Source of the DNA: Callorhinchus milii
Taxonomy: Eukaryota
Length of the DNA stretch: 64,000 nt
Direction of reading: 5' to 3'
NCBI RefSeq assembly: GCF_018977255.1
Contig: NW_024704754.1
Location: 18,600,001-18,664,000, forward strand
The notes under the pieces were generated by a model. The model did no database searches. It worked only from the letters and a program-made list of their open reading frames with translations, and was not told the DNA's origin. This document shows, piece after piece, positions 875 through 60,732 of the stretch. Positions within the stretch are counted from its first letter, which is position 1. Each line of letters starts with the position of its first letter. Both the position numbers and the translations under genes were made by a program.

Positions 875-916
875 ATTGGTAGACAGCGACACAAAGAGTC
901 ACATCCAATAACTGCA
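875..916 (-). promoter_or_regulatory. V1 promoter CSE (CGCT box, CTCF-type) flanked by inverted CCAAT boxes
   Basis: Plus strand ATTGG-tagacAGCGacacaaagagtcacat-CCAAT-aaCTGCA; repeated upstream of every unit. Confidence 0.85.
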
Positions 917-2166
917 TCAAGTGTTATTTAAAGCTGGCTTGGTTTTATTCGCATTCATATTCTGTTACAAACCAATATTCCATTGCGTAAAAATACAGCC
1001 TTTATACTGTTGCATTTTTCAAAAAAACAGCACTAACATTTTAAAGTGTAATTTTGTATTTTTTCTGCAAATAACATATTGCGAATCTTTCCCCCAAGCA
1101 GTCTTGAATCAAATCATCAATTCTTAGTCGATTAACATGACTTGCGTGTTCTGGTTCAGTTTAATTACAGCAATATTGGACTTTGAAGAGTGAAGATATT
1201 CGGCCCTATGCATTTTTTTAACTTAGCATAACACTTCTATAATAAACACGGTGAAAAATCAGACGAAACTCGCCGAACTGAACAGACACAAAAAGCTGAT
1301 CTGAACTCTTAAACTGCATTATTTTTCGTGATATTTTCTATAATGCTGCAATATTGATTTCTGTATCTAAATATTTACGGTTTTCTCGTGTTACCAATAT
1401 GTTTTATGATTGCAGATAGATACGTTTCAAAAGAAATGCGTTTTATTTCAGGCGTTTGGCGAACATTCTACGGAAAAATCAGTACAGGAGAGACAAAGAA
1501 GACTGTACAATAATCTCCACTGTGCTGTAGTTCTGGCTCAGTGTGGAGTAGGTACCCACACGAGATGGCACAATTCGCAAGAGAGAAGTTCGCAGGTTTA
1601 TCAGGAAAACCTAATCATCAAGATGTTCCACTCCAACAAACTATAATTAACGCTGTATAATAGTTTCAGTAAAAACGTGTTCTGCTTTGGAAAGGTTGTT
1701 TTATTCATTTATCTTCCTGCATCTATATGGCGTAAACTATCTGTTCATGTTTGTGCAACATGTGACCTGGTTAGAAATGATATTAACTATCCTACAATTA
1801 ACAGAAAAACAAGTAACTACTTTGTACCAGAACTGTATTCTAATTTATCCCCCACCACCCCGAATATAGAGGAATGATATGCTTTCTATGTTTTGTAATA
1901 CGAATATTTTGTATTCCCTAGTCGATGTGATTATCATAACTTGTTTAAGGTTGTCCATTGTACTAAAATAGCTTTTCTGAATATCACTTTATGATTGTAT
2001 ATTTACTACAGATTCACACACATATGGTGGGATGAAAATGTCTGCACATGCACACCTAAGTATCATATGTTTGCAGTCTGCGAAATAAACAGTCGTATAA
2101 ATACATTTATCTAAATTTGGAATTTGAATACCCTCTTGAGTGAATCAACGTCTATAATCGGCAGCA

Positions 2167-4592
2167 CTAGTTTTCTGGCATATTGCTTTGTCGACTTTGG
2201 TGGTCAGTGACCTCGATATTACTCTTGGGAAGGGTTGAATTGTAACTTCTTAAAAACAGAAAATCACTCTTCGCTGACTCTGGAGAGAGACACACCTGAT
2301 AATTATAAACTCCAGGATTATATCCAGTGTAATTCAGACATTCGTTTGGTGCGGATCCGTGATCAGAAACATTTCTCGAACTCCTGTATCCCCAGCAGCA
2401 TATTGCAGTATCGCAACCGTAGTTGGTTTTTCTGTCCTGATGACATTTGACAGCAACAAGGGCAACTATTGCCACTAAAAATATAAATGAAGTTGATGCT
2501 AAAGTGATGATCAAATACACATTTAGATCAGAGAAGTTATCTGGCTTTGTATACAAATCATTACGCCCAAGGTGATTTTCAGTAACATTCTCCACAATGG
2601 AAAAGGAAATGGTGACAGAGGCGGAGAGCATTGGTTGGCCATTGTCTTTTATCGTTATGATCAGACTTTGAGTCGTGAAGTCTTGGTATGAAAAGCTGCG
2701 AGTCGTTCTGATTTCCCCAGAGTAAAGCCCCACACTGAATAAACTGGGATCAGTAGCTTTGAGCAACTTGTAGGATAGCCTCGAATTTTGCCCAGAATCG
2801 GCATCAGCCGCGACTACCCTCGTGACCAAGTAACCCGTCGGCGCTGATCTGGGCACAGTTTCCACTGCGACCGATCCGTTCCGGGTTAAAGGCGAGATGA
2901 CCACCGGCACGTTATCGTTTTGATCCAAAATAATGACGTTGATTGTCGTGCTGCTGCTCAGTGGAGGGACTCCGGCATCGCGGGCTTGAACCTGGATGTG
3001 GAAGCTCTTCAGTGCTTCGTAATCAAAAGAGCGCAGCGCGTAAACGTCCCCATTGTTCGAGTTCACACTGATATAAGCAGATGTCGATTCGCCCTGAATA
3101 AAACTATCCAACAAAGTATATGTGACATAAGAATTCGCATCCAAATCGGGGTCGAGGGCGGTGAGTGAAAAAATAGAAGCGCCGGGAGTGATATTTTCTG
3201 TCAGGTAGACTGTGTATGAGGGCTGCTCAAACCGTGGCGCGTTATCATTGACGTCTGACAAGGACACGCAAATAGTTTTGTTTGCGTAAAGAGGCGGAGA
3301 CCCTGTGTCCCAGGCCAGGACTGTTACGTTATACGTAGGGGTGGACTCGCGATCCAAAGGCCCGTTAGTGACGAATTTATATTGGTTTTCCGAAGATGAT
3401 TGAAGTTTAAAAGGAACGGTGTTTGAGATCCGGCAATGCACCTGTCCGTTTTCTCCAGAGTCTCTATCCGAAACACTGATGAGCGTTATCACTGTCCCCG
3501 GGGCCACGTTCTCGGGCACAGTGCCGAAAGCTGATGTCAGTTTTATTTCAGGAGGATTATCATTCACGTCAATTATTTCCACCAAAACTTTGCAATGCCC
3601 CTTCATGGCGAGTTGACCATTATCTGTGGCTTGTATAGCGAGTTCATAAACCTTTGCCTCTTCAAAATCCAATCTTCCTTGTACTGTAATTTCTCCGTTT
3701 CTGAGTCCAAACTGAACAGTTCACGAACTCTTTGGGAAGCGTGATTACTGAAGGAATATGTCATCTCGGCGTTTGCACCTTCATCCAAATCATCAGCATT
3801 AACTGTGGCCACTGAGGTACCCGTTGGCGAGTTTTCTGACAATCTTGCTTTATACAGTTGTTGATCAAACGCAGGCGCGTTGTCATTTGCATCTAACACT
3901 GTGATAATAATGCGAGCGGTGCCTGATTTCTCGGGGAAACCTCCATCAATCGCTTTCAGTATTAACTGAAAGGTTGCCTCCGTTTCCCGGTCCAAAGATT
4001 TCTCCAACAATAACTCGGCAACTTTATTTCCATCACTCGTTGTCTGCATATTGAGGCCGAAGCACTCGTTTGAACTGATCTCGTAATTTTTAATAGTGTT
4101 GGTGCCCACATCAGGATCGTACGCGCTCTCCAGAGGGAAGCGAGCTCCCGGGGCGATGGACTCGCCGACCTCCAAGATAAAATCACGCTTTGGAAAACTG
4201 GGCGAATTGTCATTCACGTCCAATATCTCTACCTCCACCCGATATATTTCCAAAGGATTTTGGATGGTAACCTCAAAAGAAAGGGAGCAGGTGGGGCTCT
4301 GAGCACAAAGCTGCTCTCTGTCGATTCGCTCATTAACACATAAAATTCCAGTGTCCAAATTTACCTCGAAATGGCGTTTGTTGCCTTCAAAGACCAGCCG
4401 CAAGTCCCGAGCTGACATCGTCCGAGCATCCGTTCCTAAATACTCAGCGATATTCCCCACAAAGGCTCCGCGCTCCAGTTCCTCGGGAATCGAGTAGCGA
4501 ATCTGACCGTCAGCCACGTCCGAGAAACACAACAGGAAAATTAAATGAAACGCCCAGCGTTTAAATACCCTTCTGCTGTGTAGGTTCGCCAT
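2167..4592 (-). CDS. Clustered protocadherin V2 (6 EC, TM, tail); one 1-bp frameshift near 3695
   Basis: ORFs 3603..4637 and 2167..3672 join if one G is restored (ACG GGA GAA ATT = ETGEITVQGRLDFE). DRE, DxNDNxP and AxDxG cadherin motifs; EC1 Cys-X5-Cys. Confidence 0.85.
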
Positions 4593-4857
4593 CTTACTTA
4601 CTTTCTGAATCCGAGTTGAAAATAAATCAGAACGCAAATCTCTTGTGATTCGGCGATTTTGCTAACATTGCCAATATATATTTCTGATGAATATTGGTAT
4701 TTAGTCCACACAATGAGGAAAATGGAAGATCCCCGGAGCTCTGAGCATTGCAGCGAGATATAAAGAAAGGAACAACTGCGCTCTTCCCTGCGTTTTTTGT
4801 GCCGGATGATGGAGGAGGAGGGAAGGCGATGGATCTCTAGCGACGTTTCCCTTCTTG

Positions 4858-4899
4858 ATTGGTAGACAGCGACACAAGCAGCCTCACCCAATAATTACA
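4858..4899 (-). promoter_or_regulatory. V2 promoter CSE / double CCAAT
   Basis: ATTGG 4858, CCAAT 4888, cagcgacac between them. Confidence 0.85.
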
Positions 4900-4982
4900 A
4901 TCTGCGGTTCTTAAAGCAAGGCTGCATCTTCCCAAAATATGGATAATTACAACGAGCGTAACGATGAGCCCTCCACACCCAA

Positions 4983-5150
4983 AATAATAATACAAATCAT
5001 CATTACATTTGATACAGCGTCTTATCGCGTTGTTGAGACGTCTTAAAGCGCTTCTAAAAAAATACTACGAAGTAAATTGACTGCACCTTTTGTGGGCGAA
5101 AGACGGCAGCCAGTTGCGCACAGCAGTGTCCCAAAATAGTCGTTGAATAA
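4983..5150 (-). mobile_element. SINE 3' fragment (Deu core and tail)
   Basis: ggcagccagttgcgcacagcagtgtccca is the reverse complement of the core at ~27595-27625; aataataat tail. Confidence 0.8.
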
Positions 5151-11930: not shown

Positions 11931-11972
11931 ATTGGCGCACAGCGACACGAAGAGCCCCGACCAATAACTGCA
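11931..11972 (-). promoter_or_regulatory. V4 promoter CSE / double CCAAT
   Basis: ATTGG 11931, CCAAT 11961; sense strand TGCAGTTATTGGTCGGGGCTCTTCGTGTCGCTGTGCGCCAAT. Confidence 0.85.
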
Positions 11973-15409: not shown

Positions 15410-15649
15410 TTTGGCTGGATTTTTATACAAAAAAGATGCGTAAGCACCAAAACAATTTTGCTGATTTACAAAGCACATTTGTTAATGATTCAAAATACCC
15501 ACATGAGACCGCAGCACTTGGAAACAATCGAACTGAATCGTCCTGAACACTGCTCCACGGCGGAAACGTTTGTCTTCCCTCTGTGATTGTGGTCGGTCTT
15601 TTGTGAGGTTGGAAAAGGGGGTAGATCTCTTGCAGTCTCCAAGCTCCTT

Positions 15650-15691
15650 ATTGGCAGACAGCGACACGAACAGCCTTGACCAATAATTGCA
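15650..15691 (-). promoter_or_regulatory. V5 promoter CSE / double CCAAT
   Basis: ATTGG 15650, CCAAT 15680. Confidence 0.85.
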
Positions 15692-16059
15692 CTAAGCTTT
15701 TCTTAAAGCTGTACTGCGCCAACATCACATCAACAAACCATGATATTTTGGTACTGCCCAATTAAAGTATTGACAAGTACACTTAGACATTAATAAGCTT
15801 GATTCTTTAATATTGTTTTGACAATTGGTAGAACATATTGCATTCTAATGTACGTCACGCTGCTAATCTTCTCTGGTGTCCTGTTGGAAAGAAACTGGTG
15901 GCGTTATAATCCAGCGATTGGCCACTGAAACTCAACCATATTTCAGACAAAAAAACGCTTCTCTGTTCAATGTCGTTTTAAATTATGTTAAATAAAGAAA
16001 GTATGGAACCATATTAATAAGCCTATCATCAGTCTATTTGACCATGAATGATGCTTTAA

Positions 16060-20255: not shown

Positions 20256-20498
20256 TCTTCTGCGATGCGATTTTCTTTGTTCCCAACAGCGATGAGCTTC
20301 CTGTTACATTGCAAAATGTATGTTTTCACGCGTTTAAATACCGACATTAATGTGGAACCTTGAACTCCGCTAGATCTGCCTTTCTGAAGATGGCTCCGCG
20401 GCGCAAACGCAGGGACTGTTGTGGTGTTTCCGCTGCGATTCACTTCAGCCTTTTGTGGTGGGGGAGGGGGTAGATCGCCCCCAACGTCTCGGCTCCTC

Positions 20499-20540
20499 AT
20501 TGGTACACAGCGACACGAAGAGTCCCAACCAATAACTACA
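20499..20540 (-). promoter_or_regulatory. V6 promoter CSE / double CCAAT
   Basis: ATTGG 20499, CCAAT 20529; G-rich box at ~20455-20470. Confidence 0.85.
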
Positions 20541-21056
20541 TTACACTCTTCTTAAAGCTGAACTAAAATTTATTATATCATCGAAAATGTATTCTTCTCA
20601 CGTACTATCAAAATACATGTTGGGGTACACCTGGCTATAATTATTTTATAATTTGAGCTTAATTGTCATACAGTAAATATAACCAGAGAAGACATTTATG
20701 ACCATTGACACTGACATAGTATATGTGAATCTATCAATAGTTGTCATAACTTGTTGATATTCCTGAAACATACAGCTGTCAACTGCTAAATGCATTTTAT
20801 GCCAATGTCAGAATTTTAACATTGAAATAATGACATGCAAATAAACTGTTCCATTTACAATATTTCTGTAAGTCTCTCAAACATGAACAGAATCGACATA
20901 GTTGGAAAACATGAAAAGTGTGAAGCAATATCTGTTTAGGATGAAATTTACCGAAATGCAACTTCAAGGCGGTACAATGGGGATGTTACTGACACGCACA
21001 GGTATGAATAACAAGTTGTTTTTTACGCACCCCCAAATCTATACCAACTTACCATG

Positions 21057-23620: not shown

Positions 23621-23862
23621 TCTTCTGCCTTGCGATTTTCTTTGTTCCCAAAGCGTTCAGCTTCTTCCTCGATATGAAAATATATGTTTTCACGCATTAA
23701 AATACCGACAATAATGTGAAACCTTGAACTCCGCTAGATCTGCGTTTCTGAAGATGGCTCCGCGGCGCAAACGCAGGGACTGTTGTGGTGTTTCCGCTGA
23801 GAATCATTTCAGGCTTTTGTGGTGGGGGAGGGGGTAGATCGCCCCCAACGTCTCGGCTCCTC

Positions 23863-23904
23863 ATTGGTACACAGCGACACGAAGAGTCCCAACCAATAAC
23901 TACA
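23863..23904 (-). promoter_or_regulatory. V7 promoter CSE / double CCAAT
   Basis: ATTGG 23863, CCAAT 23893; same core as V6. Confidence 0.85.
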
Positions 23905-24466
23905 TTACACTTTTCTTAAAGCTAGACGGAAATTCATTCTATCCTAGAAACGTAATTTTTTTCTCATGTACTATCAAACGTTATGGTGTAGGACACGTGG
24001 CCATAGTTATTTTACAATGGGATCATTATTTCAATCACATAAATGCAACCATAGAAGTCACCTATGAGCATTGACACTGCTACAGTTTTTGTGAACTTAT
24101 CGAGCGTTACTATTCCCGGTCGATATTCCTGAAACAAACGGCTGTCCATTGCTTATTACATTTTATCTTCTGTCAAATATTCAATTTGGAAATAATGGCA
24201 AGCAAATTAATTGTTCCTTTCACAACATCTCTCGGATATTAATAGAGCCCACACAGAATGGAAATCATTGAAAATGTCAGGCAACATTTGTTTAAAATCA
24301 TACTTACTTCACTGATGCGGAGAGTAGACATAATAGGGAGTTTGCTACCACAAAAACAGTTATGATTATCAGGCTGCTCTTTACGCACGCCCAAAACTTA
24401 TACCAAGTTACCATGAATCTGATTTTTGTTCAATACATGTAAATAGCCGTCACTTCCACGACGCAG

Positions 24467-26872: not shown

Positions 26873-27115
26873 TCTTCTGCGATGCGATTTTCTTTGTTCC
26901 CAACAGCGTTCGGCTTCTTCCTCAACTAGAAAATGAATGCTTTTACGCATTAAAATACAGACGTTAACGTGAAACCTTGAACTCCGCTAGATCTGCGTTT
27001 CTGAAGATGGCTCCGCGGCGCAAACGCAGGGACTGTTGTGGTGTTTCCGCTGCGATTCACTTCAGCCTTTTGTGGTGGGGGAGGGGGTAGATCGCCGCCA
27101 ACGTCTCGGTTCCTC

Positions 27116-27157
27116 ATTGGTACACAGCGACACGAAGAGTCCCAACCAATAACTACA
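27116..27157 (-). promoter_or_regulatory. V8 promoter CSE / double CCAAT
   Basis: ATTGG 27116, CCAAT 27146. Confidence 0.85.
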
Positions 27158-27366
27158 TTACACTCTTCTTAAAGCGAGACGTTAATTTATTATATCATAC
27201 AAACCTTTGTTTCTCTCATATACTATCAACATGTATGTTGTGGTTCACATTGCCATAATTACGTTGCAATGTAAGTATAAATTTAGCAACATAAGTTTAA
27301 CCAAAAAAGAAATTTCTCAGCATGGACATTAACACAATAGGTTAAGTTATCAACAGTTACTTGTAG

Positions 27367-30591: not shown

Positions 30592-30834
30592 TCTTCTGCC
30601 TTGCGATTTTCTTTGTTCCCAACAGCGTTCGGCTTCTTCCTCAACTAGAAAATGAATGCTTTTACGCATTAAAATAAAGACGCTAACGTGAAACCCTCAG
30701 CTCCCCTAGATCTGCCTCCCTGAAGATGGCTCCGCGGCGCAAACGCAGGGACTGTTGTGGTGTTTCCGCTGCGATTCACTTCAGCCTTTTGTGGTGGGGG
30801 AGGGGGTAGATCGCCGCCAACGTCTCGGCTCCTC

Positions 30835-30876
30835 ATTGGTACACAGCGACACGAAGAGTCCCAACCAATAACTACA
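30835..30876 (-). promoter_or_regulatory. V9 promoter CSE / double CCAAT
   Basis: ATTGG 30835, CCAAT 30865. Confidence 0.85.
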
Positions 30877-31436
30877 TTACACTTTTCTTAAAGGCAGACT
30901 GAAATTTATTCTATCATCGAAACGTTATTTTTCTCATGTACTGTCGAAATTTGTGGTGTAACACAGATGACCCCAATTAGTTAACAATGTAAACCTCACT
31001 TAATAACATACACTTAGCCAAAGAAGACATTTATGAGCATTGACATTGACAAAGCATATGTGAAGTTATCAATTATTTGTCACTATTAGTCGTTGATATT
31101 CCTGAAATAATCTGCTGTCGACTACTTAATGTGTTCTATCCCATGTCAGATATTCAACTTGGAAATAATAGCATGCAAGTAAACTGCTGCTTTCACAGTA
31201 TTTCCGAACATCTCTCAGATATTAACACAGTCCACACAGAACAGAAACATTGAAAATGTCAAGTAAAATATGTTTAGAGCGATATTTGCCGCAGTCGTAC
31301 GTTCAGTAGGTACAACGGAGATTTCACTACCACAAAAACAGGTATGAGTATCAAATTGGTCTATACGCACGCCCAAAACTTATACCAAGGTACCATGAAT
31401 AAGTTTTTTGTTTAACAGGAATAATTACGCGCCACT

Positions 31437-33842: not shown

Positions 33843-34086
33843 TCCTCTGCGTTGCGATTTTCTTTGTTTCCAACAGCGTTCGGCTTCTTCCTCTACTAGA
33901 AAATGTATGTTTTTACGCACTAAATTACAGACGTTAACGTGAAACCTTGAACTCCGCTAAGATCCGCTTTTCTGAAGATGGCTCCGCGGCGCAAACGCAG
34001 GGACTGTTGTGGTGTTTCCGCTGCGATTCACTTCAGCCTTTTGTGGTGGGGGAGGGGGTAGATCGCCGCCAACGTCTCGGGTCCTC

Positions 34087-34128
34087 ATTGGTACACAGCG
34101 ACACGAAGAGTCCCAACCAATAACTACA
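34087..34128 (-). promoter_or_regulatory. V10 promoter CSE / double CCAAT
   Basis: ATTGG 34087, CCAAT 34117. Confidence 0.85.
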
Positions 34129-34688
34129 TTACACTTTTCTTAAAGGCAGACGGAAATTTATTCTATCATCGAAACGTTGTTTTTCTCATGTACTGTCGAA
34201 ATTTATGGTGTAACACAGATGACCCCAATTAGTTAACAATGTAAACCTCACTTAATAACAAACATTTAGCCAAATGAGACATTTATGAGTATTGACACTG
34301 ACACAGCATATGTGAAGTTATCAACTATTTGTCACTATTAATCATTGATATTGCTGGAAAATCTGCTGTCGACTACTTAATGTGTTTTATCCCATGTCAG
34401 ATATTCAACTTTGAAATAATGGCATCCAAGTAAACTGTTGCTTTCACAATATTTCCACACATCACTCAGATATCAATGCGGCCCACATAGAAGAGGAAAG
34501 ATTGAAAATGTCAAGTAATATATGTTTAGAATCATATTTACCGCTGTCGTACATAGAGTAGGCACAACAGAGATTCAACTACTACAAAAACAGGTATGAT
34601 TATCAAGTTGGTCTATACGCACGCCCAAATTGCATACCAACTTACCATGAATATGTTTTTTGTTTAACAGGAATAAATACGCGCCCCT

Positions 34689-37094: not shown

Positions 37095-37337
37095 TCTTCT
37101 GCCTTGCGATTTTCTTTGTTCCCAACAGCGTTCAGCTTCTTCCTCAACTAGAAAATGTATGTTTTCACGCATTAAAACACCGACATTAATGTGAAACCCT
37201 CAGCTCCCCTAGATCTGGCTCCCTGAAGATGGCTCCGCGGCGCAAACGCAGGGACTGTTGTGGTGTTTCCGCTGTGATTCACTTCAGCCTTTTGTGGTGG
37301 GGGAGGGGGTAGATCGCCGCCAACGTCTCGGCTCCTC

Positions 37338-37379
37338 ATTGGTACACAGCGACACGAAGAGTCCCAACCAATAACTACA
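37338..37379 (-). promoter_or_regulatory. V11 promoter CSE / double CCAAT
   Basis: ATTGG 37338, CCAAT 37368. Confidence 0.85.
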
Positions 37380-37947
37380 TTACACTTTTCTTAAAGCCAG
37401 ACGGAAATTTATTATATTTTGCAAGCATTATTTTTTCTCATGTTCTATCAAAATATATGCTGCGGTACACATGGACGTAATTATTTTACAATGTGAATCA
37501 TGATTCGAATGACATCAATTTAACGATAGAAGACATTGATGAGCATTGTAATGGACAGAGTATGTCAATTTCTCACCAGTTACATATATTCACTGATATT
37601 CCTGAAACACACTGCTGTCCACTGCTTGGTACATTTTATCCCATGCCAGCAATTCAACTTGGAAATAATGGCATGCGAGTAAATTGTTGCCTTCACAATA
37701 TTCCCCAACATCTCTCAGACATTAATAGAGTCTACACCAAATTGAAAACACTTAGAATATCAAGCAATATATGTTAAGAATGATATTTGTCGCAGATGTA
37801 TGAACATAGGAACAATAGAGATTTTACTACCATAAAAGCAGGTATGAGTATCAACTTGGTCATTACGCACGCCTAAAATTTATATCCAGTTACCATGGAT
37901 ATGTTTTTGTTTCACAGCAATAAATAGCTATCACTTGAATTACCCAA

Positions 37948-40353: not shown

Positions 40354-40595
40354 TCTTCTGCGATGCGATTTTCTTTGTTCCCAACAGCGATGAGCTTCTT
40401 CCTCAACTCGAAATTTATATTTCCACCCATCAAAAGTACCGACATTAATGTGAAACCTTGAACTCCGCTAGATCTGGCTCCCTGAAGATGGCTCCGCGGC
40501 GCAAACGCAGGGACTGTTGTGTTGTTCCTCTGTTATTCGCTTTAGCCTTTTGTGGTGGGGGAGGGGGTAGATCGCCGCCAACGTCTCGGCTCCTC

Positions 40596-40637
40596 ATTGG
40601 TACACAGCGACACGAAGAGTCCCAACCAATAACTACA
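40596..40637 (-). promoter_or_regulatory. V12 promoter CSE / double CCAAT
   Basis: ATTGG 40596, CCAAT 40626. Confidence 0.85.
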
Positions 40638-41151
40638 TTACACTTTTCTTAAAGCCAGACGGAAATTTATAATATCATCAAAACGTTATTTTTCTCACAT
40701 ATTATCCAAATTCAGTCAGTGGTACACATTACCATAATTATTTTACAATTTGAACATGAATTTAGTAACATAAATTTGGCCATCAAATAAATTTCTCAGC
40801 AACGACAGTGACACATTATGTCAAGTTACTATGAGTCATTGCTACTCCTCCTGCGCTCACTGCTTAGTACATCTTATCCCATCTTAGATATTCAACCTCG
40901 AAATAATGGCATGTTTAAATAATAAAACTGTTGCTTTTCCAATATTAACATCTCTCAGACGCTACAACATGATCGACAAAGAATGGAAAACATTGAAATG
41001 CTAAGCAATAACTGCTTCGAATCATATTTACCGAACTCGTACTATCATAAAAAGCAAGTTGCTTTTTACGCACCTCCAAAACATATGCAAAGCCACCATG
41101 AACACGATCTTTGCTTAACGGGAGTAAATAAACGTCACTTCCATGACACAA

Positions 41152-43542: not shown

Positions 43543-43819
43543 TGTTGTGGTTTTAAATTTCCTGGTGCTCCGTTATATTAAACAAAATCTTCTGTGTTAC
43601 TTACGTCCAGTTCTTTGTCAGACAAGTACACGGGTAAGCATAATGTGTGGATGTATCGATATTAAAACCTGGCATTGAAATAATCGAGTTCTGCCTCTCT
43701 GAACATGGCTACGCTTCCCAAACGCAGGCACGCACTCTGTGTCTTTCTCTGCGCGTCTGATCTGCTTTTTGTGATGGGGGTGGGGGAAAGGGTAGATCTC
43801 TTAAACGTAGGAGCTCCTT

Positions 43820-43861
43820 ATTGGCAGACAGCGACACGAAGAGCCTCAACCAATAACTGCA
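43820..43861 (-). promoter_or_regulatory. V13 promoter CSE / double CCAAT
   Basis: ATTGG 43820, CCAAT 43850, ctgca module. Confidence 0.85.
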
Positions 43862-45004
43862 TTCAGCTTTATTTAAAGCTGAACTGCAGGAAAGTCCTAA
43901 TACCTACCAATGAAGCAATACATATTCTTGGTTTGTGGCTCCAATGAAAGTATCTCCAACAAGGTGCTTGCTCTGTGTGAGGAAAGCAGAAACTGCACGC
44001 TTATGTTAATAGTGGGCTTATTCTTTATTAACTTCTGTTGGAATCTATCTAACTGGTTCTTAATATTCGAATTAAGTTGATATCTTATGATTTGGATGAC
44101 TTTATTGTCCACCGTAGTAAGTGGGAGCGCAAAAGTATCTAAATTTGGCGATCATGATGCTTCTCACTCGACTCTTGTTAACCTTGCAAAGCTAAAGGCC
44201 TAATGGGTAGGATGGTCTTATCTGGAAGAACAGAAACAAACTGACTAGACAGTATTCCCAATGGCAGGCTACTTTTTTTTTAACTGGTTAAACTCCAGAC
44301 GTACGTCCAACGCACACTCTGGTGTCTCCAAATTACGCCTAATACTTCTTAAGACAGTTAGAGACAACAATACGGCGAATATGAACAGAAAATGGATTTA
44401 TCAAAATGGCATTATTTGGTAAATATTTAATTGGAAATATTGATATTCCCTTGTGTATATCATAGAAAGTTCAGGACATCAATAAACAATCCACTTCATG
44501 CTATAAGAAATCAGAAAACGTTTTGTAAAGATATTAAGTTAAATCCTAGTGAAGTTATGCGAGGGTTGAGAAAACATTTAAAGACACATAAAGTCCACAT
44601 AATTCCTCTGAAATAGATAAGAGAAGATTTTCTTGATCAAGATGGTTTATTTTCCTGCAATAAAGGGAAATAAAGTAATTAGTAAAATGTTGGGAAAGAG
44701 GAGAACAAATGTTTAGTGGAAATTAACAAATTGTCTATTGCAAAACTGCTGTGATATTCACCAACCAACAAGGCACGTCTTTGGTGGCAGAAATCTCTCT
44801 ACAAATGTGACTAAATAAAATCTGAGATACAATTACTCAATGTTAGATTTACAATTCTTAATAAATAGTATCAGATTGCGGATATGAACCGATGACTTGA
44901 TGACCAGCCAATTGAGAGTGACCACAAGCTGGCAGGAACATACCAAATATGGAGGAAAACAAAACTCAGTGTTATTCCTTAATGCGTTAGAGTGTATTGT
45001 CCAG

Positions 45005-45067
45005 CACCCTGGAGCGTCTTTCCGACGTAAAGAGCGCCATACAAGTGTAATTTGCTGTTGTTGTTGT
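45005..45067 (+). mobile_element. Old LINE2/SINE-type 3' tail remnant
   Basis: gcaccctggagcgtctttccgacgtaaagagcgccatacaagtgtaatt followed by (gtt)n. Confidence 0.4.
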
Positions 45068-45475
45068 AATCTTCAATCTGCTAAAATGCTGTGATGAAAG
45101 CTAGCACAAAATCTGTTACATGGGCAGTTCTACCGATGAATATTACACAATATTATTCTCTAACGTTTCACAAGTTAAAAGTTACTTAAAATCCATCCAC
45201 CTCGTTCATTTAAATCATTTAAACTGGAGTGCAACTAATTGGTCTTTAGACCTGACCTTGGAGTGTTTGTCGATTGTGTTGCCAGCTTAAAATAGAAACG
45301 TCATTGCTGCATGATATTCACATTATTAAGTATAAAATTCACTTTAGAATAATAGTTGTGTATGTATTTACACGTCTATCTGATCTGCTCCACGACTCTA
45401 TCTGTGTCTGTCACATTAGCTCTGTGCTTCTCAGCACCAATGGACAAATTAAGTGCATCACCTTCTCAAAGGAAA

Positions 45476-47935: not shown

Positions 47936-48193
47936 CGTTGATTGTTTTATTTAACACCGTACACAGAATGTGTTATCCCAGTGATTGTCCCGGGAGCAAA
48001 TTGCCTTTAGAAATGCGCCTTATCTCGATTTTAAACCGAATAATTCAAATATACGCCCTCAGAGCTGTTTCCTGATCAGGGCCCCACACTCACTGCTAAC
48101 GGAGGCACTGCGCAGCTTTCTTCTTCGATTCTGTTCTGCGTCTGGTGAAGTGGGAGGCGTGGATAGATCTCTCTCAGAACATTTCTACCCCTT

Positions 48194-48235
48194 ATTGGTG
48201 GACAGCGACACAACGAGTCCCGGCCAATAACTGCA
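48194..48235 (-). promoter_or_regulatory. V14 promoter CSE / double CCAAT
   Basis: ATTGG 48194, CCAAT 48224; intact despite the frameshifted CDS. Confidence 0.85.
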
Positions 48236-48457
48236 CTGTGCTTTTCTTAAAGCGAGGCTGCTTCCAAAGTGATGGACCACAACAACCACAACAACCACTG
48301 TTGTGAAACCCTAACGCCCTTGGATAGAAATAATGGTTCAGTTCACCTTTATTGGATCTTTATTTTGTCTTAATTGTTTACAAATATTTACGGTTGTTAG
48401 TCGATTGGCGAATCGCTTTCCAGGGGTAATAATCCATAAAATAATTAGTTACTCTAT

Positions 48458-48624
48458 CCACGACTGTTTTGGGGGAATACTGCTGTGCGCAATTGGCTGC
48501 CACGTTTGCCCACTAAATAAACAGTCAATCCACTTTACAATATACTAAGTGAAGCACTATGAGACGTCTTAACTTGCAAAAAGGAAGACGCTATGTCAAC
48601 TGTAAGGATTATTATTATATTATT
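48458..48624 (+). mobile_element. SINE 3' fragment (Deu core and tail)
   Basis: ccacgactgttt...tgctgtgcgcaattggctgccacgtttgccca...aaggattattatt. Confidence 0.8.
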
Positions 48625-48639
48625 ACAGATTTTTACAAT

Positions 48640-52343: not shown

Positions 52344-52578
52344 TACTGATTCCACTCACAGAAAACGCCACCACTTCTTCAGTTAATTGGTTTGATCAAC
52401 AAGAAATTGTGGCTGTAAACGCAAGATTTTTACCTAAAAATGTAAATATGCCACCCGGATCTTTGTGAACATGGCCCCGTCCAGCACACACAGGCACTGC
52501 GCAGCTTTCTCTTTTATTCTGCGCTTTGCCTGGTAAAGAGGGAGGAGTGAGAGATCGCTTGCAGTGTTTTCGCTCCTT

Positions 52579-52620
52579 ATTGGTAGACAGCGACACAACG
52601 AGTCTCGTCCAATAACTGCA
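52579..52620 (-). promoter_or_regulatory. V15 promoter CSE / double CCAAT
   Basis: ATTGG 52579, CCAAT 52609. Confidence 0.85.
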
Positions 52621-52956
52621 CTGAGCTTTACTTAAAGCGAAGCCGCTTCAAATGTGTTGATCTCCGACAGGAGCTATGCTATTTATTGCTGTGCAACCAA
52701 AATATCCCAAGGCACTAACAAAATCTGGTTGACTGTATCATGTTTGTTTCATTATTGCAAGCGCGTAAATATATAATACAAATGACAAATATAGTATCGG
52801 TCCTCCTACCGAATTAGTTTCAGAACTCCCTGCTTCAGTGCCATTATGCTCAGTTTACAGTTCTTATCTGTTTTGGGGTATTGTTCCTTGACCTTCTCGA
52901 TATGTAAAGCTGTACGATTTTTTTCGTTACTGCCAACAAAAAAACTACATAGTTAT

Positions 52957-53044
52957 TTCCACTTTATAGTACGTCATATGAAGCGTTTTGGGTTGTCCTC
53001 CTGACGTAGAAGGAGCTGTACCAAATGTAAGGATTATTATTATT
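52957..53044 (+). mobile_element. SINE/LINE2 3' tail fragment
   Basis: tgaagcgttttgggttgtcctcctgacgtagaaggagctgtaccaaatgtaaggattattattatt matches 27664-27735. Confidence 0.75.
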
Positions 53045-53269
53045 ACTTTAACTTGCAGGAAAATGAATGGATTCAATGTTGTATTATATTACTAACAGTG
53101 CTCTCATTCCATTATATTGAAGCAAAAAGCAACAGCTTTGTTTAACTTATAATCACCTGCTTTCAAACGCATCTGTATAATTCTCCAAATTTGGAAACTA
53201 AGCGGTTGATTCCCGTGCGTAATTCTGTTTCTAGCATTGCTTATGGCATGTTTTGCAACTAAATACTAT

Positions 53270-54337: not shown

Positions 54338-56759
54338 TTATTTATTCGTTTTATGGTCAGTTATCCTGAGAGTACTCTGGGGCAAAGATGAATTGTAGGC
54401 TTTTAGAAACAGGAAGTCGCTTTTGGCTGATTCGGGCGATAAACAATATCTGTAACTGTAACTTCCTGGGATCGGGGCACCGTCCATAACTCCATCGTAA
54501 TTCAGGGATTCTCTTGGTGCGGATCTCCGAGTGAAAGATTCCCTTGAATTTCTCCATCTGCAACAGCAGAATTCGGACTTGTATCCATCAGTAAAGTTGT
54601 GATCTTGGCGGCATTTGATAGCAATTAGGACTATAATGGTCAAAAGAAATACGAATGAAGTCGTGGCAAAAGTGATGATTAAATACAGATTTAGATGAGA
54701 GAAACCCTCAGAGGTTTGGAGAAGGTTGCTATGTTCAAACTCGGGTCCGGTGAGGTTGGCCATGATGGGAACAATGACAGTCACTGTGGCGGAAAGGCTG
54801 GGCTGTCCGTTGTCCCTTATCAAGACGAGCAGACTTTGTTTGGTGCCATCTTTGTCCAATAAACTTCTACTTACTCTGATCTCTCCAGAATTGCGTCCCA
54901 GGCTGAACAAACTGGGGTCAGTAGCTTTAAGCATCTGGTAGGAAAGCCGTGCGTTCTGACCAGAATCAGCATCAGTCGCCATTACTTTGGTCACCAAGTA
55001 TCCCGCTGGTGCTGACTGGGGCACTGGACCCACGGTTGCTGATCCGTTCCGTGTTACAGGGGAAACCACCGCGGGAGCGTTGTCATTTTGATCCAAGATA
55101 ATCACATTGACTGCGGCGCTGCTGCTCAGTGACGGGGATCCGGAATCCCGCGCCTGAACTTGGATCTGAAAGTGTTTTAGCCGCTCGTAGTCAAAAGAGC
55201 GCAGCGCGTAAATGTTCCCACTTTTCGAGTCGACACTGATGTAAGGAAAGGACGTCATTCCTGTATGGGATTCTCCAGGATGGAATAGGACACGTGGGAA
55301 TTCTGGTCTAAATCAGGATCCAAAACTGTAACTGATAGAATGGAATCACCGGGAGCGTTGTTCTCCATCACATATGCAGTGTATGACGACTGGTCAAACC
55401 TGGGTGCGTTATCATTGATATCAGACACAGTCACTAGGAGGGTTTTATTGGACGAAAGAGGGGGGGATCCCGAATCCCAGGCTAATATGGGTATATTGTA
55501 TACATGAAACTTTTCACGATCCAGTCTGCCGGTTGTAACTAATTTAAACTGGTTCTCTGACATCTTTTGCAATTTAAACGGGATATTCGTGGGAACTTGA
55601 CAATTAACCTGTGCGTTTTTTCCAGAATCCGCGTCTGTTACACTGATTACAGCTATATCGTGCCTGGCGCAGCATCTTCCTGCACGCTGCTGGACACTGA
55701 GGTGAGCTGTATCTTCGGAGGGTTATCATTGACATCAATCAATCGGATGTGAATGCTGGAATGTCCTGCCATTGGCGGGGTGCCCTTATCCACAGCTTGT
55801 ACATCAAGTTCATACACGGGTGATCTTTCAAAATCCAACACGCCTTCAACTCTCATCTCTCCCGTTTTGGGATCCAAGCTGTACAATTCCCGGACGTGTT
55901 GTGAGGCACGGTTGCTGAAAGAATATGTTACCTCGGCGTTTGTTCCTTCGTCTGAATCTACAGCGTTGACTTTTATGACAAAGGTGCCAGCTGGCGCGTT
56001 TTCTGTCAAACTCACTTTGTAAACCTCGCGGTCAAAGATTGGCACATTGTCATTGATATCCAATACCGATATAGTGATCGTGGCTTTGCCAGTTCTTTGA
56101 GGGTTCCCATTGTCAACAGCCGTCAGCACCAGCTGAATTGTTGACTGCTCTTCCCGGTCTAAGGGCTTCTCCAGTAATAACTCAATAACCTTCATACCGC
56201 TGCTTCTCGTTTGCACTTTTAGGCCAAAGAAATCGTTCGCGCTTATCTGATAAGTGCTGACTGTGTTGGAGCCTACGTCTGGGTCGTGCGCGCTCTCGAG
56301 AGGGAAGCGCGCTCCCGGCGCAATGGACTCGGCGACGCGCAAGGCAAACCCACCTTCTGGAAAACTAGGAGAATTGTCATTGATGTCTAAGATCTCCACC
56401 TCAACGCGATACATTTCCAAAGGGTTTTCCATCATGACCTCAAAGGAGATGAAACAGGTCGAGCTCTCGCCACAAAGCCGATCCCTGTCCATTCTTTCAT
56501 TCACAAATAAAATTCCGTTCTCGAGATTCACCTCAAAGTACTGTTTTCCGTTATCGGAGACGAGGCGGCATTTCCGAGCAGACAGTTTCCCTATCTCAAA
56601 TCCCAAATCCTCAGCGATGTTTCCGACAAAGGCGCCGGTCTTCATTTCCTCTGGGATAGAGTAGCGGATTTGTCCAGAAACCAGGTGCGAGACACAGAGC
56701 AGAACAATAAAATGCTCGATCCTGTAGGGCAATGTCCTGCCTCTCCCTGGAGTCGCCAT
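54338..56759 (-). CDS. Clustered protocadherin V16; 1-bp frameshifts near 55655 and 55260
   Basis: ORFs 55653..56780, 55255..55572 and 54338..55258; V4 reads cattccctgt where V16 reads cattcctgt. Likely start MATPGRGR at 56759. Confidence 0.8.
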
Positions 56760-57024
56760 TAATACTGGATTCGACCTCAATGCAAATACACGGGCGTTTT
56801 TTTTCTCTGTCTCACGTCAGTGCTTTTGCCCAGCAACAAATTCTGTCTAAAATATATCAATTTCTGAATTTAAACTGAATATTGGAATTATACGACCGTG
56901 ATCCCCCCCCTGAACAGGACAACTAACTGCAAACGCAGTTACTGCTCAGCTTCTCCTTTGATTCTGTCCTGCGTCTGGTGAAGAGGGAGGGCTGATAGAT
57001 CTCCAGGGCGCGTTTCAGCTCTTT

Positions 57025-57066
57025 ATTGGTGGACAGCGACACAAGGAGTGTCCGCCAATAACTGCA
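57025..57066 (-). promoter_or_regulatory. V16 promoter CSE / double CCAAT
   Basis: ATTGG 57025, CCAAT 57055. Confidence 0.85.
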
Positions 57067-57974
57067 TTGAGTTTTCTTAAAGCGAGGCTGTTTACCAAAA
57101 GTCATGGTTTCCCATGTAACCCACGCCACGTATTGCTGTGCAACCCAAACTACCCTCATGCTTTAAAATATCGTTTCCTTTCATAATTATCCATTTGAAT
57201 TATAGGAAAACATCTTGACAAATAATCATTGTGCGTAAAATATCTTCAGGGATCATTTTCGTCTCGCTGCCATTATAATCGTGGATAAGGAATCATGGAA
57301 GGGTTTTAATGAAGGTCAATATATAAAAAATGGAATGGGCATGCCTATTACGCATGAATTTTGTTTCCCTAAGTTAGGATATCTGTTGTATAACACATCT
57401 TATTCACTGAAAGCTTATTACAACTAACAGTAAAATGATTTCCCTATTTCCGCGCTCGATCCAGCAGACAATTACATGCCAGTTTTACGTTTGCTCGTGC
57501 ATTTAAGGTCCAGAGCAAAGGTATAACATTTAAATGGGATTCAAAATGTTTTGCACATGCACAGTTTTCTTCAACAATTATATTGCAAATAATTGCAATG
57601 TGACAAATCCACGTGGAACACATTGTCAGAGAAAATTAATGAAAAAAGCAAGATTCTCCACCACCAAATGAGGAACTAAATGCAGAGTTTCTTCTTCCAA
57701 GGACTTCTTGCTTCGAATTTTGCAGGCGAACTTAAAATCATTGGTAAAAGCATCCGTTTTGGACAAGCGTGGAATACAGTGAAATATCTAGTAAATATAC
57801 TGAAAACATTGATGCTGATGTTAATGGATTTTTTGCACCAAAATATGCCATTTAAAGATGCGGTATTCAACTTTTCGAAATGCCTTAAATATTTAGAAAT
57901 TTCCACATGAATTGTTCACTTCACATGGCCTCCACATTAGAAATAGGGTTCAGGTAACTCCACACGTAGATTAA

Positions 57975-60413
57975 TTAATACCCACCACTTGTACGGATTG
58001 AGTCTGTGAAGGATTTTGACAATTTGCTGTCATTAACACGGATATCATTGAAGGGCAGGGTCGGATTACATGGCTGCAGAAAGAGAAATTCCGTAGTTGA
58101 TGCTTCTGGAGATAAAGAAACCCTGAAATTATAAGCTTCGCGTTGGGAGGTTGCCTGACTCACTCCAGGTAAGTGTGGAGGTCCTTTTGGTGTAGGTCTG
58201 CGATTCACAACATCCCTGGCAAATCGACGCCCGAAGCACCAAGTCATGTAGCTCTGGCTTTGCAAGATACCTCTGTCCTGGTGACACTTCACTGCAACCA
58301 GAAAAATAATAGCTATGAGAAATATCAAGGACGTGGAAGCTAGCGTAATGATTAAATAAAAATTTAGCTCTGAGAAATGCTGAGGCTTTCCGGGCCGGCC
58401 ACTGCGTTCAGATAGCGTTTCAGTCACATTGGGCAGGATTGAAAACAGTACAGTGGCGGTGCTGGACAGCCTGGGTTGCCCATTGTCCATCACCATGATG
58501 ATCAGATGTTGTGTGGGGTCATCCTGTTCCGTGATCTTTCGCAGTGTCCTGATTTCTCCAGTGAGGCGTTCCAGGCTGAACAAACTGCGATCGGTGGCGT
58601 CAATGAGTTGGTAGGAGAGACGTGCGTTCTGACCGGAATCTGCGTCTGCGGCCATCACCCTGGCGATCAAGTCACCCGGGTAAGTTGACTGAGGTGCAAT
58701 TTTCACGGCAGCTGAGGCGTTCCATGTTACCGATGAGACAACAAGCGGCGCATTATCATTCTGATCCAGGATAATAACATTCACGATAGCGCTGCTGCTC
58801 ATTGGCGGAAATCCTCCATCCTTGGCATGAACGTTGATCCGGAAACGTTTTAGTTGCTCGTAGTCAAAGGAGCGCAGTGCGTAAATAGTCCCACTTTGGG
58901 AGTTGATAGTAACGTAAGGAGATTCACTTTGTATCCGGTTGTCTTCCAGAACCGAATATGAGACTTCGCCATTCTGATCCAGATCAGGGTCTACAGCTGT
59001 AACCGCCGATATAGAGGCTCCGGGAGCATTGTTCTCCATCACATACACATTGTAGGAGGACTGCGTGAAGAGAGGAGCATTGTCATTCATATCGGAAACT
59101 GACACCGAGATTGTCTTATTTGTTGAGAGAGGGGGAGTCCCCGAATCCCAAGCTGAAATTGAGATGTTGAACGAGGGACTTGTTTCACGATCCAGTGCAT
59201 CACTAGTAACCAATTTATATTGGTTCTTGGAATATGTTTGGATTTTAAATGGGATGTTCATAGGGACTTGGCAATAAACGTGTCCATCTTCTCCAGAATC
59301 TCGATCCTCTATACTAATCACAGCCACCACAGTCCCCAGCGCAGCGTCTTCGGGGATCATGCGAGACACTGAGGTCAATTTAATCTCGGGGAAATTGTCA
59401 TTCACGTCAGTTATACCGACCAAAACCTTGGCATGACCTACCAAGGAATGTTGGCCATTATCCACAGCTTGTATATCGAGCTCATAAATATCGGATTCCT
59501 CAAAATCCAGCAGACCTTTAACTGTAATCTCTCCGGTTTCTGGGTCCAATTTGAACAACTCGCTGACTCTTTGGGAAGCATGATTACTGAAAGAATATCT
59601 TACCTCCGCATTCTGCCCTTCGTCCGAATCAACGGCGTGAATTTGCATCACCAGGGTATCTTCCGGTGCGTTTTCTACCACGTTAGTTCTGTATATATCC
59701 TGACCAAATACAGGCGCATTGTCATTCGCGTCAAGTACAGTGATTATAGTCTGAGCTGTGCCAGATCTATGTGGTATTCCACCATCAATGGCTGTTAGCA
59801 CCAGCTGAAATGTTGACTCTTTTTCGCGGTCTAAAGGTTTCTCCAACAGTAACTCGGCAATTTTTACGCCGTCGCTTCTGCTCTGCATTTTTAAACCAAA
59901 GTAATCGTTTGAACTGATTTGATAAGTGTTGACTGCGTTGGTTCCTATATCCGGATCGTGTGCGCTCTTGAGGGGAAACCGCGCCCCTGGCGCTGTTAAT
60001 TCAAAGACTTGCAGGAAAAATACACTCTTCGGAAAACTGGGAGAATTATCGTTTATGTCTCTGATCTCCACTTCAATGCGATACATTCCCAAAGGATTTT
60101 CGACCGCTGCTTCCAAAGAAATGAAACAGGTCGGGCTCTGTCCACAGAGCTGTTCCCGGTCGATTCTTTCATTGACAAATAAAATCCCATTTTCCAAATT
60201 TACCTCCAAGTATCGCTTCTCGTGTTCAGAGCCCAGGCGGAACCTGCGAGCGAACAATTGCCGAACGTTTAATCCCAAATCTTCAGCGATGTTCCCAACA
60301 AAGGCTCCCCGCTCCTGTTCCTCGGGAATCGAGTAGCGAATTTGTCCGATTACCAGCTCCGGGAGTAGAAACAGGAGCGTGAAAACAGCTCCTCTATTTA
60401 GCGCAATCTCCAT
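57975..60413 (-). CDS. Clustered protocadherin V17, intact (812 aa from MEIALNRG), divergent singleton
   Basis: Full ORF 57975..60458, first ATG at 60413; six EC, TM, tail YNFRVSLSPEASTTEFLFLQPC. Confidence 0.96.
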   Translation of the reverse strand: MEIALNRGAVFTLLFLLPELVIGQIRYSIPEEQERGAFVGNIAEDLGLNVRQLFARRFRLGSEHEKRYLEVNLENGILFVNERIDREQLCGQSPTCFISLEAAVENPLGMYRIEVEIRDINDNSPSFPKSVFFLQVFELTAPGARFPLKSAHDPDIGTNAVNTYQISSNDYFGLKMQSRSDGVKIAELLLEKPLDREKESTFQLVLTAIDGGIPHRSGTAQTIITVLDANDNAPVFGQDIYRTNVVENAPEDTLVMQIHAVDSDEGQNAEVRYSFSNHASQRVSELFKLDPETGEITVKGLLDFEESDIYELDIQAVDNGQHSLVGHAKVLVGITDVNDNFPEIKLTSVSRMIPEDAALGTVVAVISIEDRDSGEDGHVYCQVPMNIPFKIQTYSKNQYKLVTSDALDRETSPSFNISISAWDSGTPPLSTNKTISVSVSDMNDNAPLFTQSSYNVYVMENNAPGASISAVTAVDPDLDQNGEVSYSVLEDNRIQSESPYVTINSQSGTIYALRSFDYEQLKRFRINVHAKDGGFPPMSSSAIVNVIILDQNDNAPLVVSSVTWNASAAVKIAPQSTYPGDLIARVMAADADSGQNARLSYQLIDATDRSLFSLERLTGEIRTLRKITEQDDPTQHLIIMVMDNGQPRLSSTATVLFSILPNVTETLSERSGRPGKPQHFSELNFYLIITLASTSLIFLIAIIFLVAVKCHQDRGILQSQSYMTWCFGRRFARDVVNRRPTPKGPPHLPGVSQATSQREAYNFRVSLSPEASTTEFLFLQPCNPTLPFNDIRVNDSKLSKSFTDSIRTSGGY

Positions 60414-60690
60414 GTTCTGGGTTCGAATATGAGGCAAGTGCACCAAGATTAACCTCAATCCTTAAATGCTGAATTTAGTATCTTATTGAATATTTTATCT
60501 AAATGTATTCAGGTAGCCAAATGCGCGTCTTAATCCGAGACATGAAAGGTCTCACCTTAAGTACTCTGTCTAAAAATGGCTCCACAACCAAAGCCAGAGA
60601 GACAAACACTGCTCGCCTTTCTCTGTGGTTCTGCTCTGCCCTTTGTGAAGGGGGAGGAAGGGTAGATTTCTGGCAGCGTTTTCCCTCCTT

Positions 60691-60732
60691 ATTGGCCGAG
60701 AGAGATACAAAGAGCTCTGACCAATAAATACC
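60691..60732 (-). promoter_or_regulatory. V17 promoter: both CCAAT boxes kept, CGCT and TGCAG modules lost
   Basis: ATTGG(60691)ccgagagagatacaaagagctctgaCCAAT(60721)aaatacc. Confidence 0.85.

What the first reader, a model, noticed from the sequence alone, without database searches (positions are those of the whole stretch)
875..60732. Invariant composite promoter: two inverted CCAAT boxes exactly 25 nt apart bracketing the CTCF-type CSE
Seen: all 17 gene promoters have ATTGG-N25-CCAAT (CCAAC in V3) even where the surrounding DNA has diverged, plus a GATC/G-rich box on the gene side and TTAAAG on the far side. On the sense strand the element reads TGCAGTTAT-N5-(degenerate core)-GTGTCGCTG. Known: clustered Pcdh promoters carry a CGCT-box CSE bound by CTCF, TGCAG is the upstream module read by zinc fingers 9-11, and CCAAT is the NF-Y site. 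Inference: the distal CCAAT box overlaps the CTCF upstream module/spacer, so NF-Y and CTCF could compete or cooperate as a built-in promoter-choice switch. I do not know of this fixed double-CCAAT geometry being described for Pcdh promoters.
Basis: partly seen in the sequence, partly recalled or inferred. Interest (0 to 1): 0.7.

Follow-up and report, generated by a model that had tools for sequence, protein, structure and literature searches.

The report
Twin-CCAAT chimaera protocadherin promoter module
All 17 elephant-shark neuron-identity (protocadherin) genes here start from the same rigid promoter block, two back-to-back CCAAT boxes 25 bases apart around the known CGCT element (16 of 17), and sister genes that lack the CGCT element keep the boxes, so the block is likely an NF-Y-driven promoter with a weak CTCF site laid over it (binding untested).

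Summary
Confirmed: 17 of 17 promoters carry ATTGG-N25-CCAA(T/C); about 0.1 expected by chance. The genes are elephant-shark protocadherin epsilon2-18. The CGCT element in this cluster is already published.

Between groups the boxes are 95-96% identical, the spacer 42%, the flanks 25-27%. The distal box follows the CTCF motif in epsilon and the NF-Y optimum in nu. Two teleost gammaC-like genes carry the module with 20-21-nt spacers, so 25 is not universal; other inverted NF-Y pairs in this genome favour 28-32.

Best reading (0.6): an old NF-Y promoter scaffold with a weak embedded CTCF site. The proposed promoter-choice switch is geometrically possible but untested. Ten paper searches found no description; the key 2008 elephant-shark paper was unreadable. 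This scan noted the same cassette earlier in shark, skate and ray DNA.

The parts
849..933 (-). epsilon18 promoter module (worked example). In sense order: TTTAAR 933-928; CTCF-type upstream motif TGCAG 916-912; distal box ATTGG 909-905; weak CTCF-type core and CGCTG 899-884; proximal CCAAT 879-875; GATC 852-849, then a C-rich run
   Evidence: name by counting from genes matched to epsilon2, 8, 9, 14, 17
4832..4916 (-). epsilon17 module; boxes 4858-4862 and 4888-4892; upstream motif TGTAA
11905..11989 (-). epsilon15 module; boxes 11931-11935 and 11961-11965
15624..15708 (-). epsilon14 module; boxes 15650-15654 and 15680-15684
20473..20557 (-). epsilon13 module (recent-duplicate group epsilon7-13)
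23837..23921 (-). epsilon12 module (duplicate group)
27090..27174 (-). epsilon11 module (duplicate group)
30809..30893 (-). epsilon10 module (duplicate group)
34061..34145 (-). epsilon9 module (duplicate group)
37312..37396 (-). epsilon8 module (duplicate group)
40570..40654 (-). epsilon7 module (duplicate group)
43795..43878 (-). epsilon6 module; an RNA contig ends at 43751, 69 nt downstream of the proximal box
48166..48252 (-). epsilon5 module; an RNA contig ends at 48134, 60 nt downstream of the proximal box
52553..52637 (-). epsilon4 module; boxes 52579-52583 and 52609-52613
56998..57082 (-). epsilon3 module; an RNA contig ends at 56953, 72 nt downstream of the proximal box
60665..60749 (-). 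epsilon2 module; both boxes intact at 25 nt, but upstream motif (GGTAT) and CGCT box (GTATCTCTC) absent, and GATC replaced by AATC

Best explanation
The 85-base block is likely the shared core promoter of these protocadherin genes, predicted to be driven by NF-Y on two divergent CCAAT boxes, with a weak CTCF-type site (the known CSE) lying between the boxes in the epsilon genes. Shown by sequence: the rigid block TTTAAR-N17-ATTGG-N25-CCAAT-N22-GATC-C-rich; its retention in promoters without the CSE; the CTCF-like register of upstream motif and core. Inferred: NF-Y on the proximal box, about 65-87 nt before the RNA 5' ends, would open and activate each promoter. With NF-Y contacts from -7 to +17, two outward-facing trimers would leave the middle 11 bases (most of the core and its CpG) free. 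The distal trimer would cover the TGCAG module read by CTCF fingers 9-11. CTCF would therefore likely coexist with the proximal trimer and displace or weaken the distal one, while supplying the forward-oriented loop anchor known from mammals. In the nu-type promoters the CTCF site has decayed and the distal box has moved to the NF-Y optimum.
For: Box-specific conservation between the two large groups: boxes 95-96%, TTTAAR 71%, spacer N25 42%, flanks 25-27% (19 epsilon and 8 nu representatives). Nu group: distal box intact 17 of 17, upstream motif 0 of 17, GTCGCT core 0 of 17. Epsilon group: upstream motif 24 of 28, distal box intact 23 of 28, proximal 27 of 28. The base next to the distal box is NF-Y-optimal (C/G) in 15 of 17 nu versus 1 of 28 epsilon; on collapsed representatives 8 of 9 versus 0 of 21, Fisher p 1.5e-6, paralogs not independent. 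TGCAG-N12-canonical core: 12 sites versus 0 control in this genome. Mouse cPcdh promoter sites are weak cores, and those that lose binding in a finger-11 mutant are enriched for the upstream motif (PMC11217373 passages). A one-mismatch CTCF core lies in reverse orientation about 11 kb 3' of the last constant exon, as with mammalian enhancers (PMC7811963 section 10). Teleost gammaC-like genes L052 and L070 match the proximal-box-plus-GATC profile above all 60 shuffles (26 bits versus a maximum of -1). NF-YA is encoded in this genome. RNA contig ends lie 60, 69, 72 (epsilon) and 83 nt (nu) downstream of the proximal box, within the -60/-100 NF-Y range; this is one study and only a weak hint.
Against: No binding or reporter data. 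The epsilon core has 4-7 mismatches to the 14-base CTCF consensus (recalled motif) and lacks its central AG. Epsilon distal boxes are only moderate NF-Y matches (mean 2.6 mismatches to a recalled decamer). CCAATAA also resembles posterior-Hox/Cdx sites (recalled). The 25-nt gap is rare among this genome's other strong inverted pairs: 1 of 35 at 25, 17 of 35 at 28-32, so simultaneous binding of both trimers is not shown to be favoured. In run X6 a contig runs across a nu module (L041 7533-8913), against one sharp start there. In human cell lines CTCF and NF-Y peaks overlap less than expected. One epsilon promoter (C13:18593103) has both boxes degenerate.
Confidence: 0.6

Rival explanations
1. 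Built-in switch: CTCF and NF-Y compete for the epsilon element, and the winner decides whether that promoter is chosen in a given neuron.
For: The distal NF-Y footprint (-7..+17) covers the upstream motif. The shared bases follow one code in epsilon and the other in nu. In two epsilon promoters with an apparent 26-nt gap the motif-to-core distance stays 12 while the distal box decays. Mutually exclusive binding was suggested for CTCF/cohesin peaks with CCAAT boxes (PMC4889920 passage).
Against: No data on choice or single-cell expression. The distal box is lost in 5 of 28 epsilon promoters while the upstream motif and core persist. Teleost CSE promoters lack a distal box in that register (none of the CSE-type promoters among the 17 examined). 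NF-Y reads the minor groove and leaves major grooves open, so overlap need not exclude.
Confidence: 0.2
2. The epsilon interior is no longer a CTCF site in this lineage. Another zinc-finger protein reads it, or it is a conserved remnant, and the whole cluster is NF-Y-driven.
For: 4-7 mismatches to the CTCF consensus. Epsilon2 and the nu group do without it. The two nu-group genes nearest epsilon carry a decayed GTGTCACT.
Against: The core is 90-97% conserved among 21 epsilon representatives. It lies in register with teleost CSEs. It keeps the genome's own upstream-motif register. Weak cores are normal at mouse Pcdh promoters.
Confidence: 0.12
3. The pentamers are read by a factor other than NF-Y (CUX1/CDP, NFI, a homeodomain protein), or the block persists by shared ancestry or gene conversion without being selected as two boxes.
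For: Seven promoters are recent duplicates. Non-box positions inside the block are also above background (41-63%). Epsilon boxes read CCAATAA.
Against: Identity is patterned (boxes 95-96%, spacers 41-47% between groups), not uniform. Positions -1, +2 and +3 of the proximal box and +1 of the nu distal box follow NF-Y preferences. The module recurs in teleosts.
Confidence: 0.08

Closest known systems
Conserved sequence element (CSE, CGCT box, forward CTCF site) of mammalian clustered-protocadherin promoters; CGCT element also reported for elephant shark (Yu 2008, as cited in PMC2926608)
   Same: One element per variable exon, about 220-280 nt upstream of the likely ATG, with a CGCT box, weak core plus upstream motif, forward orientation, and a reverse core 3' of the cluster.
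   Different: Bracketed by two CCAAT boxes and fixed TTTAAR and GATC/C-rich blocks that outlast the CSE in the nu group. No CCAAT mention in the Pcdh papers searched for the word.
Double-CCAAT NF-Y promoters (direct repeats at 31 bp, c-Fos class; inverted pair of TOP2B at 32) (PMC4982600, PMC4889920)
   Same: Two boxes about three turns apart, a GC/C-rich element nearby, a box about 60-100 nt before the start, and room for another factor between the trimers.
   Different: Divergent orientation, which is the rarer class; a gap off this genome's favoured 28-32 nt; a CTCF-type site as the intervening element; repetition over 45 paralogous promoters.
CSE-less C-type protocadherin promoters (mouse gammaC4/C5; Xenopus pcdh-gamma2 15-36 with an unnamed 13-bp motif, PMC4978886 section 18)
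   Same: No CGCT box. The two teleost genes with the twin-box module are gammaC5-like (L052 groups with a Seriola gammaC5-like protein, support 1.0).
   Different: The Xenopus motif's letters are only in a figure, so identity with the GATC/C-rich block is untested. Orthology of nu to gammaC is not resolved (support 0.43).

Membership tests
Clustered-Pcdh CSE (CTCF site) | One element about 200-300 nt upstream of each variable exon's ATG | tested here: met
   17 of 17 in the window; distances 224-277 nt for the likely ATGs
Clustered-Pcdh CSE (CTCF site) | CGCT box | tested here: met
   GTGTCGCTG in 16 of 17 window promoters; absent as GTCGCT from 17 of 17 nu-group promoters
Clustered-Pcdh CSE (CTCF site) | Upstream motif in CTCF register (fingers 9-11) | tested here: met
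   TG[CT]A[GA] 12 nt before the core in 24 of 28 epsilon; the same register before canonical cores, 12 vs 0 control
Clustered-Pcdh CSE (CTCF site) | Core matching the CTCF consensus | tested here: inconclusive
   4-7 mismatches to a recalled 14-base consensus, central AG absent; weak cores are reported for mouse Pcdh promoters; no matrix was available
Clustered-Pcdh CSE (CTCF site) | CTCF/cohesin binding, methylation-sensitive, looping to reverse enhancer sites | not testable with these tools
   Only a candidate reverse core at C13:18405278
NF-Y CCAAT box | Intact CCAAT pentamer with NF-Y-type flanks | tested here: met
   Proximal box intact in 27 of 28 epsilon and 13 of 17 nu; distal in 23 of 28 and 17 of 17. 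Mean mismatches to a recalled decamer 1.0-1.6, except epsilon distal at 2.6
NF-Y CCAAT box | Position -60 to -100 from the transcription start | tested here: inconclusive
   RNA contig ends 60-83 nt downstream at 4 promoters, one study, contigs only; one contig of another run crosses a module
NF-Y CCAAT box | NF-Y binding and activation | not testable with these tools
   NF-YA gene present; no binding data
Favoured double-CCAAT geometry | Spacing at the preferred helical phase | tested here: not met
   Among 35 other inverted strong pairs in this genome, 17 have 28-32 nt gaps, 8 have 18-22, and 1 has 25

The most novel reading that the evidence does not exclude
The ancestral jawed-vertebrate protocadherin promoter was a composite in which a CTCF site is nested inside an NF-Y pair set half a turn off the usual phase, so that CTCF fingers 9-11 and the distal NF-Y exclude each other and act as a two-state choice switch. 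Later lineages split it: stochastic genes kept the CTCF part, and C-type/nu genes kept the NF-Y pair and became CTCF-independent. The unnamed Xenopus 13-bp motif would be part of this module.
Probability: 0.2. Interest if true: 0.75.

Novelty: new variant of a known kind. Interest (0 to 1): 0.45.

Why it matters
Promoter choice in clustered protocadherins is explained almost entirely by CTCF loops and methylation, and the activator that fires the chosen promoter, or the CSE-less C-type promoters, is poorly defined in the papers read here. This locus names a candidate (NF-Y). It also offers a natural experiment: 28 promoters with both codes, 17 with the CCAAT pair only, and teleost genes with one or the other. 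The overlap can be tested directly with short probes and reporters.

Tried and rejected
Literature: ten full-text searches. The four aimed at CCAAT with protocadherin promoters gave 0, 0, 12 listings unrelated by title and abstract start, and 0 papers; one search gave 5 such listings. Not held: Yu 2008 PNAS, Wu 2001 (22), Noonan 2004 (23), Guo 2012 (52), Yin 2017 (56). A prior description of the boxes in those papers or their figures cannot be excluded.

Supplements: searches gave no usable mammalian or frog CSE sequences (one file each in 47 and 48 was not searchable; only the first hits were seen in 51 and 54). No mammalian promoter was examined.

Gene names: the exact look-up for four 3'-group genes and the 5'-most gene failed (5 of 5). 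The labels delta, mu and nu rest on gene order, constant-exon positions and published subcluster order.

Sequencing runs: no RNA holder listed on record, and all listed runs carry one species label, so no second chimaera was laid and no orthologous footprinting was done.

Motifs: a search for the GATC/C-rich motif gave 72 genome hits versus 29 control and identified no factor. TTTAAR as a TATA box for upstream antisense RNA got no support: the one upstream contig starts inside the module (L041 4819-5235). A shared exonic CTCF site (eCBS) across all epsilon genes was rejected: a 2-4 mismatch site occurs only in epsilon6-13.

Tree: the EC1-EC3 tree did not resolve epsilon, nu and gammaC (2 frameshifted genes and 1 protein left out; L070 and L071 not included). 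No order of events was tested.
Full report
OBSERVATION. The window holds 17 protocadherin variable exons on the minus strand. Each has ATTGG-N25-CCAAT upstream (16 exact, one CCAAC), with no other spacing from 20 to 30 in that orientation; about 0.1 is expected at one spacing. TTAAAG is present in 17 of 17, GATC in 16 of 17 and GTGTCGCTG in 16 of 17. The upstream pentamer is TGCAG in 7 of 17 and TG[CT]A[GA] in 16 of 17. Seven promoters are recent duplicates. The proteins are Callorhinchus milii protocadherin epsilon; matches to named epsilon2, 8, 9, 14 and 17 make the window epsilon2-18.

WHOLE CLUSTER. I read 564 kb around the window and found 48 EC1 starts: two solitary 5' genes, 28 epsilon-group genes, one solitary gene and 17 genes of the 3' group. 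Last constant exons lie at C13:18720536 and 18416235. I call the groups delta, epsilon, mu and nu from the published order; only epsilon is confirmed by name.

ONE MODULE, TWO VERSIONS. Both large groups share TTTAAR-N17-ATTGG-N25-CCAAT-N22-GATC-C-rich. The gap of 17 holds in 21 of 28 epsilon and 11 of 17 nu promoters, the gap of 25 in 25 of 28 and 11 of 17, and the gap of 22 in 18 of 28 and 13 of 17 (the GATC test also accepted GGTC and GATT). Between groups the boxes are 95-96% identical, TTTAAR 71%, the spacers 41-47% and the flanks 25-27% (19 and 8 representatives with a 25-nt gap). The nu group has neither the upstream motif (0 of 17) nor the GTCGCT core; its two genes nearest epsilon show a decayed GTGTCACT. 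The pair is therefore more widely kept than the CSE it brackets. The two solitary 5' genes keep the proximal half only (GCTGTCCT-CCAAT). The mu gene shows none of it.

TRADE-OFF AT THE DISTAL BOX. In epsilon the seven bases before the distal box read TGCAGTT-like (24 of 28), the box is degenerate in 5 of 28, and the proximal box is intact in 27 of 28. In nu the distal box is intact in 17 of 17 with an NF-Y-optimal neighbour base in 15 of 17 (epsilon 1 of 28), and the proximal box is degenerate in 4 of 17. The NF-Y decamer and CTCF consensus used for scoring are recalled motifs, not matrices from a call. The pattern fits two codes on the same bases; it does not show that the proteins compete.

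IS THE INTERIOR A CTCF SITE? For: the 12-nt register of TGCAG before the core occurs at 12 canonical cores in this genome versus 0 controls. Mouse cPcdh promoter sites are weak cores and many depend on the upstream motif (PMC11217373, passages). Teleost CSE-like elements lie in the same register. A one-mismatch core faces backwards about 11 kb beyond the last constant exon. Against: the epsilon core has 4-7 mismatches and lacks the central AG. The same scan found five other one-mismatch cores in 564 kb, in both orientations, so the reverse site is a candidate only.

OTHER VERTEBRATES. A scan of metagenome contigs returned 20 loci encoding bony-fish-like clustered protocadherins; 17 had enough upstream DNA, and 3 were left out for having 245 nt or less. 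Two gammaC5-like genes carry the module. L052 has ATTGG-N21-CCAAT-N22-GATC plus the C-rich run. L070 has TTTAAA, an imperfect ACTGG-N20-CCAAT-N22-GATC, and the same 47 nt from TTTAAA to the proximal box as the chimaera (counted on the printed sequence). Both score 26 bits on the chimaera profile against a maximum of -1 in 60 shuffles; neither has CGCT between the boxes. Most of the others carry a CSE-like element without a distal box in register. One (L058) has CGCTG-N4-CCAAT as in the chimaera, one (L066) has CCAGT there, and L057 has an inverted pair with a 10-nt gap upstream of its CSE. No mammalian promoter could be obtained.

WHY 25? Inverted pairs of strong NF-Y sites are enriched in this genome (24 vs 3 and 22 vs 2 controls). 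I dropped 5 near-identical copies, 5 sites found twice and the one Pcdh site, leaving 35. Of these, 17 have gaps of 28-32, 8 have 18-22, and 1 has 25 (p 0.001 for the peak and 0.02 for a 23-27 trough, with windows chosen after seeing the data; some sites are probably paralogous or hairpins). So 25 lies about half a turn off the local favourite, the teleost 20-21 lies in the second cluster, and two nu promoters have 15. The CSE footprint may have fixed the gap in epsilon, but nu mostly keeps it without a CSE, which remains unexplained.

GEOMETRY AND START SITES. NF-Y contacts run from -7 to +17 of the first C, with an 80-degree kink (PMC4982600 section 14). It reads the minor groove and leaves major grooves open (PMC4889920, passages). 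Two outward-facing trimers would leave spacer positions 8-18 free; the distal one would cover TGCAG and the proximal one the last three bases of CGCTG. In RNA run X5 (a spliced contig shows RNA), contigs end 60, 69 and 72 nt downstream of three epsilon proximal boxes and 83 nt downstream of a nu box. That fits NF-Y's -60/-100 position, but it is one study and contigs only, the piece tables were cut, and a contig of run X6 crosses that nu module.

KNOWN AND NEW. The CGCT element of this cluster is published (PMC2926608, passage citing Yu 2008). Double-CCAAT promoters are a known class (PMC4982600, passages and section 14). CSE-less C-type promoters are known (PMC7811963 passages and section 10; PMC4978886 passages and section 18, supplements searched). 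Also searched by term only: PMC3333863, PMC2764143 and PMC1852091 (passages), PMC11667065 and PMC7087399 (supplement hits). Ten searches (listed under Tried and rejected) found no account of CCAAT pairs at Pcdh promoters, but five key papers were not held. Earlier unreviewed notes of this scan report the same cassette and the CGCT-less last subcluster in sharks, skates and a ray. I saw them after reaching that reading; they are leads, not evidence.

VERDICT. The feature is real and a new variant of a known promoter element. It is most likely an NF-Y scaffold with an embedded weak CTCF site (0.6); a choice switch remains possible (0.2). Interest 0.45.

Noticed in passing
window 44653-45461: An RNA contig (X5) splices the end of the epsilon5 variable exon to a short downstream exon at 44445-44653 (GT..AG on the minus strand, 807-nt intron); a private 3' exon for an epsilon gene.
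   Followed up: no
window 46048, 47234, 55655, 56859, 56902: Single-base insertions seen in both an RNA and a DNA run fall in or just before broken epsilon reading frames, so several apparent frameshifts are likely assembly errors.
   Followed up: partly
exons of epsilon6-13, about 772-778 nt after the EC1 start (e.g. window about 39515, 29753): A forward CTCF-like core (2-4 mismatches) in this clade only, reminiscent of the mammalian exonic CBS.
   Followed up: partly
G000:C13:18405278: Reverse-oriented one-mismatch CTCF core about 11 kb 3' of the last constant exon; candidate enhancer anchor.
   Followed up: partly
G000:C13:18493442 (L010): A nu-group promoter with the gap cut to 11 nt has a forward two-mismatch CTCF-like core with CGCT overlapping its degenerate proximal box.
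   Followed up: no
window 60842-62676: Fragments of a decayed protocadherin exon lie upstream of epsilon2, one piece inverted.
   Followed up: no
G000:C30:307172, 351760, 1411417, 1514480; C904:1309: Five near-identical inverted CCAAT pairs with a 21-nt gap, suggesting a repeated gene family with divergent promoters.
   Followed up: no
window about 48390-48630 and 53015-53050: High-copy repeat fragments between genes, with very high depth in all four runs.
   Followed up: no
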